Source: a virus. Taken from it: 64,000 bases of DNA. Shown one piece after another: positions 41,907-46,727 of the stretch. The stretch's first letter is position 1, and every line of letters begins with the position of its first letter. The notes under the pieces were generated by a model. That model saw nothing but the letters and a program-made list of their open reading frames with translations, had not been told where the DNA came from and did not search any database. Location: UHGV virus genome UHGV-1366603; one strand, 5' to 3'. Both the position numbers and the translations under genes were made by a program.

Positions 41907-42668
41907 ATGTTTAATATTGAGATTACCCCACTCGTTAAAACTGAAATCCGTCCGGTTCCTGAAGCACAGTTACTCGATCAACTTTATCATGTATTCCTGG
42001 ATAAAGGTGTACATTTCCGTGTAGAGCAGCTCAATGACGAAAGCATCGTATTCTACTGGACTCACAGCAACGATTATCTTTGCGATACTATCGCGAAAGA
42101 AATCGGCGAGTTACTCAACCCAGCAGAAGGTACCACGAACGCCTGGGCGGAACCTACCGAGACCGAACAACCGAAAGTCGAAGAACAGCAGAAAGACGAA
42201 CCACACGTCCTCTGGTACGAAGGTAAGAAGATTAAGGAAATTAAAGAAGCGTTAGAGACCCTCTATCCTGACGATTTAGGCATTTATTCGGATAACAGCA
42301 AGCTCGTCGTTCGATTGAAGAAAGACGATCGTAATCTCATGGAAGAAATTAGTTCTATCGTTAAGCTGATCGATAATGATGCCGTTCGACTTATTTCGAT
42401 TCATGGTATCGGAAAAGATACCGCTGATGAACTCATGCGTGTGGCTGTTCACGAACACAAGGAGAAAATTCATCAATCCGTTTACAAAGGCGAAACGCTC
42501 ACCGTTTTGATCGACAACGATGTTGAGGTTTTCAAATCATTAACGAACTTTTTGCGAATTGTTTCAACGGATTCTTATATCGAAAAAACACGTGCCCTGC
42601 TTCTCGAAAAGCTTTTTAATATTTACAACAAAGATTGCGATTGTCCTAATTGTCAAAAACGTCGTTAA
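41907..42668 (+). CDS. hypothetical protein (253 aa) with C-terminal CDCPNC motif
   Basis: AAAAGGAAAAG RBS; acidic centre; C-terminal CxCxxC plus basic tail. Confidence 0.7.
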   Translation: MFNIEITPLVKTEIRPVPEAQLLDQLYHVFLDKGVHFRVEQLNDESIVFYWTHSNDYLCDTIAKEIGELLNPAEGTTNAWAEPTETEQPKVEEQQKDEPHVLWYEGKKIKEIKEALETLYPDDLGIYSDNSKLVVRLKKDDRNLMEEISSIVKLIDNDAVRLISIHGIGKDTADELMRVAVHEHKEKIHQSVYKGETLTVLIDNDVEVFKSLTNFLRIVSTDSYIEKTRALLLEKLFNIYNKDCDCPNCQKRR

Positions 42669-42691
42669 TTAACGACGTTCTAAATTCATCT

Positions 42692-42726
42692 AAAGGGGTG
42701 GTAAACCACCCCTCTATTATTGTATT
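42692..42726 (+). terminator. rho-independent terminator
   Basis: AGGGGTGG-TAAA-CCACCCCT hairpin followed by a T-rich run; preceded by the 18-bp palindrome CGTCGTTAATTAACGACG over the stop codon. Confidence 0.75.
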
Positions 42727-42745
42727 TACCTAAAGGAGTATTAAA

Positions 42746-43177
42746 ATGTTTTTCGTATTAAAAGATGATATCCGTAACTACATTCGTAACAATCCGATTG
42801 CTCTAGGCGTTTTAGCAGGTTTCTGTCGTCCAAATACTGACTTCGATTTAGTTAAGTTAGAAGAATATCAGGAAATTGTGAACACTACCTACATGCAGAT
42901 CTGTAGCTGGGGTAAACGTCCTCGTGAGGAGTACCCTGTTGGTGAGTTAGGTGACACCATGCACCGTGACCAGAACCTGATGCACGAATTCGTTGAATAC
43001 ACACTGGAAAATCTTAACTATCCACTCCTGGTCGACACTGTACCAGAAATGGTTGACGAATGGTTAAAACGTGTTTATAGCGATCCTACCGCCAACAAGT
43101 TACTGAGCCAGATGTCACAAACTTCTCGTGACATCGACACTCGTACGCTGATGTACTTAGCGCACAACGTACGTTAA
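42746..43177 (+). CDS. hypothetical protein (143 aa); paralog of the 41454 gene
   Basis: AAAGGAG RBS before ATG 42746; followed by terminator. Confidence 0.7.
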   Translation: MFFVLKDDIRNYIRNNPIALGVLAGFCRPNTDFDLVKLEEYQEIVNTTYMQICSWGKRPREEYPVGELGDTMHRDQNLMHEFVEYTLENLNYPLLVDTVPEMVDEWLKRVYSDPTANKLLSQMSQTSRDIDTRTLMYLAHNVR

Positions 43178-43182
43178 TCTCT

Positions 43183-43240
43183 CTCCGCTATAGACTTCGG
43201 TCTATAGCGGAATTAATTTTCTTTCCCTTTTCTTTTTTGT
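43183..43240 (+). terminator. rho-independent terminator
   Basis: CCGCTATAGAC-TTCG-GTCTATAGCGG hairpin followed by an extended T-rich tract. Confidence 0.85.
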
Positions 43241-43344
43241 TATTTTGACACCACTTTACTTACACCCCACCCGACTATTCCTATGCTGGCTGAGGGATGT
43301 AAAACGACCTCTTAAACCTTTTTTACTTACTGTGAGTTAACGCG

Positions 43345-44707: not shown

Positions 44708-44746
44708 TTGGGTGGGGTAAAACCCACCCAACGTTTTTCTTTTTTG
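44708..44746 (+). terminator. rho-independent terminator
   Basis: GGGTGGGG-TAAAA-CCCACCC hairpin followed by CGTTTTTCTTTTTTG. Confidence 0.85.
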
Positions 44747-44768
44747 TGTAAAATGGGAGTTAAACAAA

Positions 44769-45359
44769 ATGGCTGAACGTTGGACTAAAGAAGGTATTAT
44801 TGAATCCAAAACGGATTTAGAAGGCGGGTACGTCAACGACCCTGACGATTTAGGTGCAGAAACGAACCACGGTATCACGGTAACGACTGCACGTGAGTAC
44901 GGTTATAAAGGGAAAATGAAAGACCTTACCCGTACTCAAGCATTCGATATCTACGATCGTGGTTGGTGGAAGAAACTCAAACTCGATGAGATTTTCGCTA
45001 TCTCGCCTTTACTGGCTGACAGAATGTTTGATTTCGGGATTAACGCAGGGCGTGCTAACTGTGTGAAATCGCTACAGCGTATTCTCAACGTGTTGAACAA
45101 CGAAGGTAAACTCTACGCGGACATCGATGTTGACGGTGGAATGGGGCCTAAAACGCTGGGTGCGTTGAACGCGTACCTGAAATACCGTAAAGATGAAGGG
45201 CTAAGCATTTTAATCTTTGCGTTAATCTCGCACCAAGTAACTTACTACACGGAAATCTCCGAGAAACGTAAGCGAAACGAGAAATACACCTACGGCTGGT
45301 ACGGCCGCGTGTTCAGAGAAATGGCAGATTATGCGGTAAAAGCGGGGTTAGTAAAATGA
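44769..45359 (+). CDS. endolysin with GH108-like lysozyme N-terminal domain
   Basis: EGGYVNDPDDLGAETNHGIT matches the GH108 signature EGGYVNDPxDxGGxTxxGIT; size (196 aa) fits GH108 plus a peptidoglycan-binding domain. Confidence 0.75.
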   Translation: MAERWTKEGIIESKTDLEGGYVNDPDDLGAETNHGITVTTAREYGYKGKMKDLTRTQAFDIYDRGWWKKLKLDEIFAISPLLADRMFDFGINAGRANCVKSLQRILNVLNNEGKLYADIDVDGGMGPKTLGALNAYLKYRKDEGLSILIFALISHQVTYYTEISEKRKRNEKYTYGWYGRVFREMADYAVKAGLVK

Positions 45360-45460
45360 ACTGGTTTGCTAAACTCTTAGCGTTATTGTGGAAAGCGTTA
45401 ACGTCTGGTCGAAAACGTAAAGACGAAAAACGTGGGCAAGAATTCTTCTGGTTTTTGTAA
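45356..45460 (+). CDS. possible small amphipathic basic peptide (34 aa)
   Basis: Unlisted short ORF MNWFAKLLALLWKALTSGRKRKDEKRGQEFFWFL whose ATG overlaps the endolysin stop (ATGA); hydrophobic face then basic cluster. Could be non-coding. Confidence 0.3.
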   Translation: MNWFAKLLALLWKALTSGRKRKDEKRGQEFFWFL

Positions 45461-45475
45461 GGAAAGGTGTGGGTA

Positions 45476-46141
45476 ATGGAGAAGCTTCAATATAAACGTT
45501 TAGATAATAAGTGGTTTGTATTAACGGAGGATTACCATTATCCGTTTACGTTACGTGAGATTTATCACGACCACGTACACTTAGACCGTGCGGTTTATTT
45601 AACGGGCGTATTACCTGACACGCAACTGTGGTTAACAGCACCGAAAGGGTTCGTAACGGACTTAGCGTCGATACCCGAACACTTACAGGGAATTTTCCAT
45701 CCCGACGGGCCTTGGGCACCGGCTGCGTGTATTCACGACTTGTTATACCAGAAATGCAGTACGGAACGTAGCTACCCTATGACACCCGGTGGTAACGTTT
45801 CTCGAATTATCGATAAAGAGTTCGCTGACTTAACGTTTCTGCGTATTATGCAGTCGTTAGAAATCTCACCGTATATCTGCCAAACGTTTTATAAAGCTGT
45901 TGTAGGTTTCGGTTGGGATGCTTACGTAGACCCTAACGCGAAACCGTCTTATTCCACTAACGACTACCGTACGTTAGATTACAATCGAAACTATTTGTTC
46001 GTTCGCGAGTTTAAGGAACCTGCTATTCCTGACCACGAACGTGTTGATATCACCACAGGTTGTCCCGTTAATGTCAAATACCTGAACATTAAACGGGCTT
46101 TTCTGTCTGGGAGGGAAGATGTTTCATCCAAATCCGAGTAA
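45476..46141 (+). CDS. hypothetical protein (221 aa)
   Basis: ATG 45476 with AAGGTG upstream; contains GFVTDLASIP and HD pairs (a DUF-type signature I cannot name with confidence). Confidence 0.65.
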   Translation: MEKLQYKRLDNKWFVLTEDYHYPFTLREIYHDHVHLDRAVYLTGVLPDTQLWLTAPKGFVTDLASIPEHLQGIFHPDGPWAPAACIHDLLYQKCSTERSYPMTPGGNVSRIIDKEFADLTFLRIMQSLEISPYICQTFYKAVVGFGWDAYVDPNAKPSYSTNDYRTLDYNRNYLFVREFKEPAIPDHERVDITTGCPVNVKYLNIKRAFLSGREDVSSKSE

Positions 46142-46634
46142 TTTTAAAATCAAAGAGTTAGTACCACAATCGTACATCGCCAAATACGGCGATTCTGCAA
46201 TTCGGTTTATGAACCCGTTGTTAATGATTTCGCTACAACAGATTCGTAACCGTTTCGGCAGAATGGTGATTAACTCGTCTGCTGCGCAACAGCGTGGCCT
46301 AAGAACCTTAGACTTTTTCATCAACCAAGAAAAGCCTAAGGGCGGTAACTATAAACAACGTGCGTTACAACTCTACTCTGATTCAGGGAGTCAGCACAAG
46401 TTCGGCAACGCATTTGATGCGACTCTGTTAGATTCAACGGTAAAACAAGTCCACGATTACATCGCCGCCAATCCTGATGAGTTTCCGTTTATTCACTTTA
46501 TTGAATGCGACATCAGTTGGTTACATATCGATGTTCGTAACCAACCGAATATCACGTTCTGGTCACCGAATCGGGGTACTGTGAAAGTCGTGAAACAAAG
46601 CCCTATCGATTGGAGCGCCTTAGTTAAAATCTAA
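46119..46634 (+). CDS. peptidase M15-like cell-wall hydrolase
   Basis: SQHKFGNAFDA fits the S-x-H-x-x-G-x-A-x-D zinc-ligand motif and WLHIDV the W-x-H-x-D motif of the M15 (VanY/L-Ala-D-Glu peptidase) family; GGGAGGGAAG RBS. Confidence 0.55.
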   Translation: MFHPNPSNFKIKELVPQSYIAKYGDSAIRFMNPLLMISLQQIRNRFGRMVINSSAAQQRGLRTLDFFINQEKPKGGNYKQRALQLYSDSGSQHKFGNAFDATLLDSTVKQVHDYIAANPDEFPFIHFIECDISWLHIDVRNQPNITFWSPNRGTVKVVKQSPIDWSALVKI

Positions 46635-46727
46635 GCGCGTAATCCGAAACTTAGGGTGATTGTACCTTATTTTGTATAAACCGTCTTAGAACGCGTTCTA
46701 GCGCGTTTTACGGACAAAATAAACCTA

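What the first reader, a model, noticed from the sequence alone, without database searches (positions are those of the whole stretch)
42659..46700. Perfect palindromes at gene ends
CGTCGTTAATTAACGACG (42659-42676, spanning a stop codon) and TAGAACGCGTTCTA (46687-46700) are perfect palindromes separate from the nearby terminator hairpins; they could be protein-binding sites or extra RNA hairpins.
Basis: seen in the sequence. Interest (0 to 1): 0.2.

Follow-up and report, generated by a model that had tools for sequence, protein, structure and literature searches.

The report
Unconserved palindromes beside phage terminators
Two short palindromes at gene ends of a gut jumbo phage are real, but they are ordinary: one is a hairpin-forming repeat that relatives do not keep, lying next to a terminator that they do keep, and the other is no longer than chance allows.

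Summary
The window comes from a ~223-kb SPN3US-like ("Seoul-like") jumbo phage of enterobacteria.

**Palindrome 1.** It is longer than reported: a perfect 22-mer, AACGTCGTTAATTAACGACGTT, at 42658-42679. Its left arm is the codons K-R-R-stop of a 253-aa gene, and its right arm is the first 11 nt of the 3'UTR. About 0.01 palindromes of this length are expected per window, so it is not chance. It is a single copy.

In 18 distinct versions of this gene end from relatives, it is perfect in only 3. One pair is broken in 10 of the 14 versions that have both arms, the stop-codon T takes all four bases, and 4 versions lack the right arm entirely. No change is compensatory. The GC-rich terminator 14 nt downstream pairs fully in 18/18.

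**Palindrome 2.** TAGAACGCGTTCTA (46687-46700) is correct as reported but at chance level. It is the top of a longer imperfect hairpin (46683-46715), built by a 10-nt tandem duplication, that lies 10 nt before a bidirectional terminator.

**Verdict.** Both are ordinary inverted repeats in hairpin-rich gene ends. They may add an RNA stem-loop, but nothing supports a protein-binding site. Interest is low.

The parts
42658..42679 (.). Palindrome 1: a perfect 22-bp palindrome, AACGTCGTTAA|TTAACGACGTT. The left arm is the codons AAA CGT CGT TAA (K-R-R-stop). The right arm is the first 11 nt of the 3'UTR. As RNA it forms a 9-bp stem with an AAUU loop.
   Evidence: sequence; chance expectation ~0.01; fold, -10.5 kcal/mol; perfect in 3 of 18 relatives, no compensatory change.
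41907..42668 (+). 253-aa ORF that ends inside palindrome 1 (C-terminus ...CDCPNCQKRR*). It has no Pfam family and only a sub-threshold helix-hairpin-helix hit. Relatives carry 253-aa forms and ~390-aa forms with an internal duplication.
   Evidence: PF14520, E = 0.011, below cut-off.
42681..42683 (+). Second in-frame TAA. Relatives whose first stop is mutated (TAA to GAA, CAA or AAA) read through the right arm as E/Q/K-L-T-T/I-F and stop here.
42694..42713 (+). Intrinsic-terminator-like hairpin AGGGGTGG-TAAA-CCACCCCT followed by CTATTATTGTATTT. This is the conserved structural element at this gene end.
   Evidence: 8 pairs, 100% paired in 18/18, the only change being U-A to U-G; all 4 loop sites vary, stems vary at 1 of 16 sites.
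42718..42729 (+). AT-rich motif TATTGTATTTAC just after the terminator and before the RBS AAAGGAG (42732-42738) of the 143-aa ORF 42746..43177. It is a candidate phage virion-RNAP early promoter. This is inferred, not shown.
   Evidence: Similar motifs follow other terminators in the window. PMC7598289 describes ~10-nt AT-rich early-promoter motifs in RNAP-encoding jumbo phages. The motif is invariant in 17 of 18 relatives.
46687..46700 (.). Palindrome 2: a perfect 14-bp palindrome, TAGAACG|CGTTCTA.
   Evidence: chance level. Strictly perfect in 4 of 8 close relatives; the others carry C-to-T changes that are G-U compatible, or a central G-to-T.
46683..46715 (+). Longer imperfect hairpin (14 pairs, loop UCUA, one bulge) that uses the left half of palindrome 2. 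It was created by a 10-nt tandem duplication, CGCGTTCTAG (46692-46701) / CGCGTTTTAC (46702-46711). Relative L007 has a single copy and a 9-bp stem.
   Evidence: -16.6 kcal/mol here, -6.2 in L007; 27, 33, 76; 92.5% of cells paired, one pair with a change on both sides.
46726..46750 (.). Bidirectional terminator hairpin TACCCTCCTGC-TAA-GCAGGAGGGTA between convergent genes, with T-rich tails on both strands.
   Evidence: In L010 and L011 the stem sequence differs but still pairs.
46119..46634 (+). 171-aa endolysin-like ORF (phrog_894; weak Peptidase_M15_3 hit) whose 3'UTR holds palindrome 2.
46755..47234 (-). 159-aa ORF with a lipoprotein-like signal sequence (phrog_9559), convergent with the endolysin-like gene.

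Best explanation
Both palindromes are ordinary inverted repeats in the hairpin-rich 3' ends of phage transcription units. They are not dedicated recognition sites.

Palindrome 1. Its left arm is fixed by protein coding (K-R-R-stop). Its right arm is the first 11 nt of the 3'UTR. On the mRNA the two arms can form a modest, AU-rich 9-bp stem-loop 14 nt upstream of the GC-rich terminator that actually defines this gene end. Across the phage population this repeat is a drifting quasi-palindrome:
- most versions have 10 of 11 complementary pairs;
- some have lost the stop codon at its centre;
- some lack the right arm entirely;
- the perfect 22-bp form in this window is a minority allele that differs from the commonest form by one base (G instead of T or A at 42677).

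I infer that the complementarity arose and is topped up at the DNA level. The likely routes are fold-back (template-switch) copying of one arm from the other, as in quasipalindrome-associated mutation, or decay of an older 3' hairpin. At most it now contributes a weak, dispensable accessory RNA hairpin.

Palindrome 2 is a chance-length palindrome. It forms the tip of a longer 3'UTR stem-loop generated by a 10-nt tandem duplication, one of three hairpins in a convergent-terminator region.

Shown: the sequences, the statistics, the predicted folds and the population variation. Inferred: the templated-mutation origin and the lack of function.
For: - Palindrome 1 is non-random (~0.01 expected).
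- It is unique in the window. In IMG/VR it occurs only at the orthologous site of one relative. It is absent from 185,579 species' genomes.
- 18 distinct orthologous gene ends were collected. Complementary pairs out of 11: 11 in 3 versions, 10 in 7, 9 in 2, 8 in 1, 7 in 1, and 4 versions lack the right arm.
- Pair C42660-G42677 is broken in 10 of 14. There is no change on both sides of any pair. The helix is 85% paired, against 100% for the adjacent terminator.
- Variable sites: right arm 3/11, spacer 4/14, terminator stems 1/16, terminator loop 4/4.
- The hairpin weakens from -10.5 to -6.3 kcal/mol with the A variant, and is lost (-0.6) in L006, which keeps the terminator, RBS and next gene almost unchanged.
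- The stem has 4 GC pairs of 9 and no U-tract after it, unlike the 17 GC-rich intergenic hairpins in the window.
- The window is hairpin-rich. Stems >=9 bp: 16 observed against 1.6 expected. Palindromes >=12 bp are enriched outside coding sequence, 5 of 21 against 6.8% of bases (p = 0.012).
- The other long palindrome (24 bp, 39071-39094) is a GC-rich hairpin that relative L005 replaces with a different hairpin.
- Palindrome 2: chance level; tandem duplication and alternative longer fold; the orthologous motif in SPN3US is not palindromic.
- Quasipalindrome template-switch mutagenesis is an established mechanism in E. coli (PMC7202029, listed; abstract only).
Against: - An 11-of-11 match, and even the common 10-of-11 match, to a coding arm cannot be chance. 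Some directional force made it, and past or weak present selection for an RNA hairpin is not excluded.
- The relatives are closely related in this intergenic region, so conservation tests have limited power.
- The direction of change at 42677 (towards or away from G) is not rooted.
- Template switching predicts only changes towards complementarity. It does not explain why A and T both occur at 42677, or why all four bases occur at 42666.
- For palindrome 2, the substitutions seen in relatives are mostly G-C to G-U on the + strand. That is what a weakly selected + strand RNA hairpin would show.
- No transcript data were available.
Confidence: 0.62

Rival explanations
1. The palindromes are functional accessory RNA stem-loops. 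On this view each forms a second hairpin just upstream of the terminator, which protects the mRNA 3' end from exonucleases, assists termination by the phage RNA polymerase, or serves as a processing site.
For: - Both fold stably with strongly negative z-scores.
- Both lie 10-14 nt upstream of a terminator, and a third double-hairpin gene end exists at 60684-60777.
- Palindrome 1's complementarity is far beyond chance.
- In the palindrome 2 hairpin, changes among relatives are mostly wobble-compatible on the + strand, with one pair changed on both sides.
- A 6-bp core of the palindrome 1 stem is intact in 10 of 18 versions.
Against: - The palindrome 1 helix shows only pair-breaking changes (C-A, C-U, A-C, G-A) and no compensation.
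- 4 of 18 relatives lack the right arm yet keep everything downstream.
- The right arm evolves like the spacer, not like the terminator stems.
- Most gene ends in the window have a single hairpin.
- The stem is 9 bp, too short for a classical RNase III site (my own knowledge).
Confidence: 0.25
2. Palindrome 1, and possibly palindrome 2, is the operator or recognition site of a dimeric DNA-binding protein of the phage or host. That protein might be a repressor or activator acting on the promoter-like motif about 55 nt downstream, or the helix-hairpin-helix-like product of the gene it ends.
For: - It has perfect dyad symmetry including the centre (TTAATTAA), which an RNA hairpin does not need.
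- It is non-random.
- An AT-rich promoter-like motif follows the terminator.
- The host gene has a weak HhH hit.
Against: - It is a single copy in 64 kb, with no related site within 3 mismatches.
- Its half-sites and centre are polymorphic and one arm is dispensable.
- It lies at a gene's 3' end with a terminator between it and the next promoter-like motif.
- HhH motifs bind DNA without sequence specificity (my own knowledge), and the hit is below threshold.
- Palindrome 2 is at chance level, and its SPN3US counterpart is not palindromic.
Confidence: 0.05
3. Both palindromes are pure coincidence, with no mutational or selective cause.
For: Palindrome 2 is fully compatible with this. About 4.3 palindromes of >=14 bp are expected per window, and near-matches occur at the expected rate. 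Many windows are scanned, so rare events will be seen.
Against: - For palindrome 1, about 0.01 are expected per window.
- The quasi-palindrome, with 9 to 11 of 11 pairs, is shared by 12 of the 14 versions that have both arms.
- It sits exactly at a gene end, where hairpins are concentrated.
Confidence: 0.08

Closest known systems
Rho-independent (intrinsic) terminator hairpins, and tandem 3'-end stem-loops of phage and bacterial operons
   Same: - They are inverted repeats located at gene ends.
- They are predicted to fold in the mRNA.
- They sit immediately next to canonical terminators (42694-42713 and 46726-46750).
- The window has 17 such intergenic hairpins.
   Different: - The palindrome 1 stem is AU-rich (4 GC pairs of 9), overlaps the stop codon, has no U-tract and does not keep its pairing in relatives.
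- The true terminators are GC-rich, followed by T-runs, and keep pairing in 18/18 versions.
Quasipalindrome-associated template-switch mutation hotspots (E. coli, yeast; PMC7202029, PMC3820800)
   Same: - Most relatives carry an imperfect inverted repeat, with the variable sites inside the repeat.
- A single base change (to G at 42677) makes the repeat perfect.
- Arm deletion and centre mutation are also seen.
   Different: - The direction of change is not established.
- A and T alleles at 42677, and four alleles at 42666, are not predicted by templated correction.
- No multi-base simultaneous correction was seen.
Palindromic operators of dimeric repressors or activators (for example lambda, P22 or LexA-type sites)
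   Same: Perfect dyad symmetry over about 20 bp with an AT-rich centre.
   Different: - It is a single copy and is not at a promoter.
- The half-sites are not conserved and the site is dispensable in relatives.
- No cognate protein is known.
Repetitive extragenic palindromes (REP/BIME-type elements)
   Same: A palindromic sequence just after a stop codon, able to form an mRNA hairpin.
   Different: REPs are multi-copy families. Palindrome 1 occurs once in the window and nowhere else in the collections searched, apart from the orthologous site.

Membership tests
Intrinsic (rho-independent) terminator | GC-rich stem of about 5-12 bp | tested here: not met
   The palindrome 1 stem has 4 GC pairs of 9 and is not picked up by the terminator scan. 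The neighbouring hairpin 42694-42713 (6-7 GC pairs of 8) is.
Intrinsic (rho-independent) terminator | U/T-rich tract immediately 3' of the stem | tested here: not met
   Palindrome 1 is followed by CTAAATTCATCT. The long palindrome 2 hairpin is followed by AAAATAAACC.
Intrinsic (rho-independent) terminator | Base pairing preserved among relatives | tested here: not met
   Palindrome 1 helix: 85% paired, one pair broken in 10 of 14 versions, the arm absent in 4 of 18. Adjacent terminator: 100% paired.
Palindromic operator of a dimeric DNA-binding protein | Dyad-symmetric sequence | tested here: met
   Perfect palindromes of 22 bp and 14 bp.
Palindromic operator of a dimeric DNA-binding protein | Both half-sites conserved in related genomes | tested here: not met
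   Perfect in 3 of 18 versions. Sites 42660, 42661, 42666, 42674, 42676 and 42677 vary, and the right arm is deleted in 4 versions. The palindrome 2 counterpart in SPN3US is not palindromic.
Palindromic operator of a dimeric DNA-binding protein | Position overlapping or adjoining a promoter; often several sites per genome | tested here: not met
   Palindrome 1 lies at the 3' end of a gene, upstream of a terminator. There is no second copy within 3 mismatches in 64 kb. Promoters of this phage are not mapped, so the position test is only approximate.
Palindromic operator of a dimeric DNA-binding protein | Specific binding by a cognate protein | not testable with these tools
   This needs EMSA, DAP-seq or ChIP.
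Quasipalindrome template-switch hotspot | Imperfect inverted repeat with short or no spacer | tested here: met
   11 of the 14 versions with both arms are imperfect, with 7 to 10 of 11 pairs.
Quasipalindrome template-switch hotspot | Mutations that convert a mismatch to the complement of the opposite arm | tested here: inconclusive
   G at 42677 (4 of 14 versions) completes the pair with C42660, while T (7) and A (3) do not. All three alleles occur on one spacer haplotype. The direction is not rooted.
Repetitive extragenic palindrome (REP) family | Many dispersed copies per genome | tested here: not met
   A single copy in the window. The only exact match in IMG/VR is the orthologous site, and there is none in genome contigs.
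RNase III processing hairpin | About 20 bp or more of (near-)continuous double-stranded RNA | tested here: not met
   Palindrome 1 forms 9 bp and the palindrome 2 long hairpin forms 14 bp with a bulge. The length criterion comes from my own knowledge.

The most novel reading that the evidence does not exclude
Palindrome 1 could be a true cis-acting DNA site in these persistently infecting Seoul-like jumbo phages. For example, it could be an operator for a phage regulator, possibly the HhH-like protein whose gene it terminates, controlling the early-promoter-like motif downstream. On this reading the allelic series (perfect, one mismatch, centre-mutated, arm-deleted) would reflect tuning or loss of that control between lineages. 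A milder variant is that the site is a natural quasi-palindrome mutation hotspot, visible in population data as four bases at 42666 and three at 42677 within otherwise near-identical flanks.
Probability: 0.05. Interest if true: 0.45.

Novelty: already known. Interest (0 to 1): 0.1.

Why it matters
It matters little. The result is mainly a clean negative. The perfect palindrome that caught the eye is a minority allele of a variable inverted repeat. The element that is actually preserved at this gene end is the ordinary terminator next to it.

It has two modest uses:
- It is a worked example of separating selected hairpins from unselected ones with population data. Terminator stems paired in 18/18 versions while their loops varied freely. 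The palindrome arm varied like the spacer.
- If followed up, it offers a possible natural example of quasipalindrome dynamics in a jumbo phage that persists in enterobacterial isolates.

Tried and rejected
- **Close phage relatives.** Megablast of 42000-47500, and tblastn of the 253-aa protein, against 50,697 phage records found nothing. The gene is specific to this uncultured or persistent clade, so SPN3US and Asesino could be used only for palindrome 2 and for general synteny.
- **Known RNA families.** Rfam gave no hit in the window at gathering thresholds.
- **Repeated motif or regulon.** No further copies of either palindrome or of their near-variants were found. Matches to the half-site CGTCGTTAA within one mismatch are somewhat enriched (48 against 31 expected). 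They are scattered through coding sequence on both strands, with no paired arrangement, so I did not pursue them.
- **A cassette bounded by the two palindromes.** Rejected, because the two sequences are unrelated.
- **Inverted duplication extending beyond 22 bp.** Rejected by eye: there is no similarity beyond the 11-nt arms (sequence).
- **Recoding or read-through signal.** Rejected. The stop codon lies at the hairpin apex rather than upstream of a structure. Relatives simply mutate the stop and add 5 residues.
- **The duplicated 18-mer containing CTGTAACGTTACAG.** Relatives carry only one exact copy per contig in IMG/VR, so it is probably a coincidence.
- **Sigma-70 promoter scan.** It was at chance level, and it is not appropriate for a phage that uses its own RNA polymerases.

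
Full report
**What the window is.** The tail-protein ORF 26094..29099 is 72-77% identical in protein to Erwinia phage Asesino and Salmonella phage SPN3US. 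The DUF7941 virion proteins at 43345..44704 match the same jumbo phages at about 46%. The 253-aa protein encoded at 41907..42668 is found, identical, on a 223,427-bp human-gut metagenome contig. Close homologues sit on 220-225-kb contigs from gut metagenomes and from isolate assemblies of Salmonella, E. coli, Shigella and Enterobacter. These include circular "plasmid" records NZ_CP173450.1 (E. coli, 221,873 bp) and NZ_CP134650.1 (Enterobacter ludwigii, 222,441 bp). This fits the "Seoul-like persistent jumbo phages" described in bioRxiv 10.1101/2024.12.31.630880. These phages belong to the nucleus-forming Chimalliviridae and transcribe with their own RNA polymerases (PMC7598289), so sigma-70 logic does not apply to them.

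**Checking the observation.**
The perfect palindrome is 22 bp, AACGTCGTTAATTAACGACGTT, at 42658-42679.
- It spans the stop codon TAA (42666-42668). Its left arm is AAA CGT CGT TAA, the K-R-R-stop end of the 253-aa ORF. Its right arm is the first 11 nt of the 3'UTR.
- Fourteen nt further on is a terminator-like hairpin, AGGGGTGG-TAAA-CCACCCCT (42694-42713). After it come an AT-rich motif, an RBS and the next gene at 42746.
- Palindrome 2, TAGAACGCGTTCTA, is exactly at 46687-46700. It lies in the 120-nt gap between convergent genes, 25 nt before a bidirectional terminator at 46726-46750.

**Is it more than chance?**
- In 200 dinucleotide-preserving shuffles, about 0.01 palindromes of 22 bp are expected per window. 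Only 2 of 200 shuffles had any palindrome of >=22 bp.
- Palindromes of >=14 bp number 9, against 4.3 +/- 2.2 expected (5.5% of shuffles reach 9).
- So palindrome 1 is not chance, and palindrome 2 on its own is unremarkable.
- Neither is a repeated motif.
- Palindrome 1 occurs in IMG/VR only at the orthologous site of one relative, and it is absent from one genome per 185,579 prokaryotic species.

**Context: a hairpin-rich genome.**
- Perfect stems of >=9 bp with loops of 0-8 nt number 16, against 1.6 expected.
- Of 27 stems of >=8 bp, 17 are intergenic, although only about 7% of the window is non-coding.
- Those 17 are GC-rich (CCCTCTCTCC, CCCCTACC and similar) and mostly followed by T-runs, as terminators are.
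- Palindromes of >=12 bp are also enriched outside coding sequence (5 of 21; p = 0.012).
- The only other long perfect palindrome (24 bp, 39071-39094) is one of these GC-rich hairpins whose tetraloop happens to be AATT. Relative L005 has a different hairpin at that spot.
- Palindrome 1 is unlike these hairpins. It has 4 GC pairs of 9, no T-run, and it overlaps a stop codon.

**Predicted structures.**
- As RNA, palindrome 1 forms a 9-bp stem with an AAUU loop (-10.5 kcal/mol, z = -5.3). It sits in tandem with the terminator hairpin.
- In the second region the best fold is not the 14-mer itself. It is a 14-pair imperfect hairpin at 46683-46715 (-16.6 kcal/mol) that uses the left half of palindrome 2.
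- That hairpin exists because of a 10-nt tandem duplication, CGCGTTCTAG/CGCGTTTTAC (46692-46711). Relative L007 has a single copy and only a 9-bp stem (-6.2 kcal/mol).

**Related sequences, the decisive evidence for palindrome 1.** I collected 18 distinct versions of this gene end, using protein-guided and flank-guided scans and exact-protein look-ups (alignment A4).

| Complementary pairs out of 11 | Number of versions | Which |
|---|---|---|
| 11 | 3 | window, L005, E. coli plasmid L023 |
| 10 | 7 | |
| 9 | 2 | |
| 8 | 1 | |
| 7 | 1 | |
| right arm absent (7-nt gap) | 4 | L006, L019, L024, L031 |

- The four versions without the right arm keep the terminator, RBS and downstream gene almost unchanged.
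- Position 42677 is T in 7, G in 4 and A in 3 of the 14 versions that have both arms. The pair with C42660 is therefore broken in 10 of 14.
- The first base of the stop codon (42666) is T, G, C or A. The non-stop versions simply read on for five codons (E/Q/K-L-T-T/I-F) to the TAA at 42681-42683.
- One version changes the left arm instead (CGT to CAT, R to H).
- No pair shows a change on both sides. The helix is 85% paired.
- The adjacent terminator helix is 100% paired in 18/18, and its only change is U-A to U-G.

| Region | Variable sites |
|---|---|
| Palindrome 1 right arm | 3 of 11 |
| Spacer | 4 of 14 |
| Terminator stems | 1 of 16 |
| Terminator loop | 4 of 4 |

The terminator shows the signature of a selected hairpin. 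The palindrome arm behaves like unconstrained spacer.

**Related sequences for palindrome 2.**
- Among eight close versions, the 14-mer is strictly perfect in four (window, L007, L008, E. coli).
- It has a central G-to-T in L009, a C-to-T in E. ludwigii, and two transitions in L010 and L011.
- Counted with G-U allowed, 98% of cells pair for the short form and 92.5% for the long hairpin, which has one pair changed on both sides. This is weak evidence, compatible with a + strand RNA stem-loop.
- In SPN3US the corresponding stretch is a 10-nt direct repeat (AGAGCGTTAC/AGAGCGTTTT) and is not palindromic.

**Interpretation.**
- The left arm of palindrome 1 is explained by coding. K-R-R is the C-terminus in most homologues.
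- A right arm complementary at 10 or 11 of 11 positions cannot be coincidence, so something produced it. The population data show that selection is not holding it in place now.
- My best reading (confidence about 0.6) is a quasi-palindrome. It would have been created and occasionally perfected by fold-back or template-switch copying between the arms, a known mutational process at imperfect inverted repeats (PMC7202029, PMC3820800; listed). Alternatively it is a relic of an older 3' hairpin. Either way it now contributes at most a dispensable extra stem-loop ahead of the real terminator.
- The perfect 22-mer in this window is a minority allele, one base away from the commonest form.
- Palindrome 2 is a chance-length palindrome inside a duplication-built 3'UTR hairpin in a three-hairpin convergent-terminator region.
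- The main rival (about 0.25) is that these are weakly selected accessory RNA hairpins.
- A protein operator (about 0.05) is disfavoured by single copy, position, polymorphic half-sites and dispensability.
- Caveats: the relatives are close, the direction of change is unrooted, and templated correction does not explain the A/T alleles at 42677 or the four alleles at 42666.

**Comparison with known kinds, and verdict.**
- Neither palindrome meets the defining features of an intrinsic terminator: GC-rich stem, U-tract and conserved pairing were all tested and not met.
- Neither fits a REP-type repeat, which requires many copies.
- Neither fits a conserved operator, because the half-sites are not conserved.
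- They match what is already known about hairpin-rich phage gene ends and about quasi-palindromes.
- Novelty: already known in kind. Interest: about 0.1.

Noticed in passing
whole window; The window is a ~223-kb SPN3US-like (Seoul-like, chimallin-clade) jumbo phage. Near-identical genomes appear as ~222-kb circular 'plasmids' or contigs in isolate assemblies of E. coli, Salmonella, Shigella and Enterobacter. This matches the persistent virulent jumbo phages described in bioRxiv 10.1101/2024.12.31.630880.
   Followed up: partly
window 42666 and 42677 (alignment A4): Two sites inside the 22-bp palindrome are unusually polymorphic among near-identical flanks. All four bases occur at the first stop-codon position. 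G, A and T occur at 42677, and all three of those alleles occur on one spacer haplotype. This may be a mutational hotspot.
   Followed up: partly
window 14096-14113 and 35478-35495: The 18-mer ACGCTGTAACGTTACAGG, which contains the 14-bp palindrome CTGTAACGTTACAG, occurs twice exactly on the + strand. The two copies lie inside unrelated ORFs in different reading frames. Two or more matches within 3 mismatches arose in 2 of 100 shuffles. Relatives in IMG/VR carry only one exact copy per contig, so it is probably a coincidence.
   Followed up: partly
window 39071-39094: A 24-bp perfect palindrome, CCCTCTCAGGAATTCCTGAGAGGG, lies between ORFs 38783..39064 and 39107..39481. It is a GC-rich hairpin with an AATT loop and no T-run. 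Relative L005 has a different hairpin at the same spot, which looks like terminator turnover.
   Followed up: partly
intergenic regions at about 7730, 14425, 15185, 16355, 19795, 36315 and 42718-42729: AT-rich motifs ending in TTAC/TTTAC (for example GATATATATTACC, GATAGATATTACC, TATTGTATTTACC) recur just after terminators. They are candidate early promoters for the virion RNA polymerase. Early-promoter motifs in RNAP-encoding jumbo phages are ~10-nt AT-rich sequences that differ from phage to phage (PMC7598289). A second motif, TGTGAG, recurs just upstream of the RBS of several genes, including the structural gene at 43345.
   Followed up: no
window 20235-20248: A 14-bp palindrome, GTGAGAATTCTCAC, lies in a non-coding stretch. 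It sits immediately downstream of a promoter-like GATATATTTCATC motif and upstream of an RBS and a small ORF. It contains the recurring GTGAG motif on both strands.
   Followed up: no
window 41442..41885 and 42746..43177; 41907..42668: The 147-aa and 143-aa ORFs flanking the 253-aa gene are paralogues (both phrog_8484). The 253-aa gene itself exists in relatives as a ~390-aa form with an internal duplication of its HhH-like module, and it is only 63-94% identical between phages whose downstream gene is 94-99% identical. This is a mosaic, recombination-prone spot.
   Followed up: partly
window 44769..46634: Three cell-wall-related genes lie in a row: a GH108 plus PG_binding_3 endolysin (44769..45359), a DUF1353 protein (45467..46141) and an M15-like/phrog_894 endolysin-like protein (46119..46634). 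A convergent lipoprotein-like ORF follows at 46755..47234.
   Followed up: no
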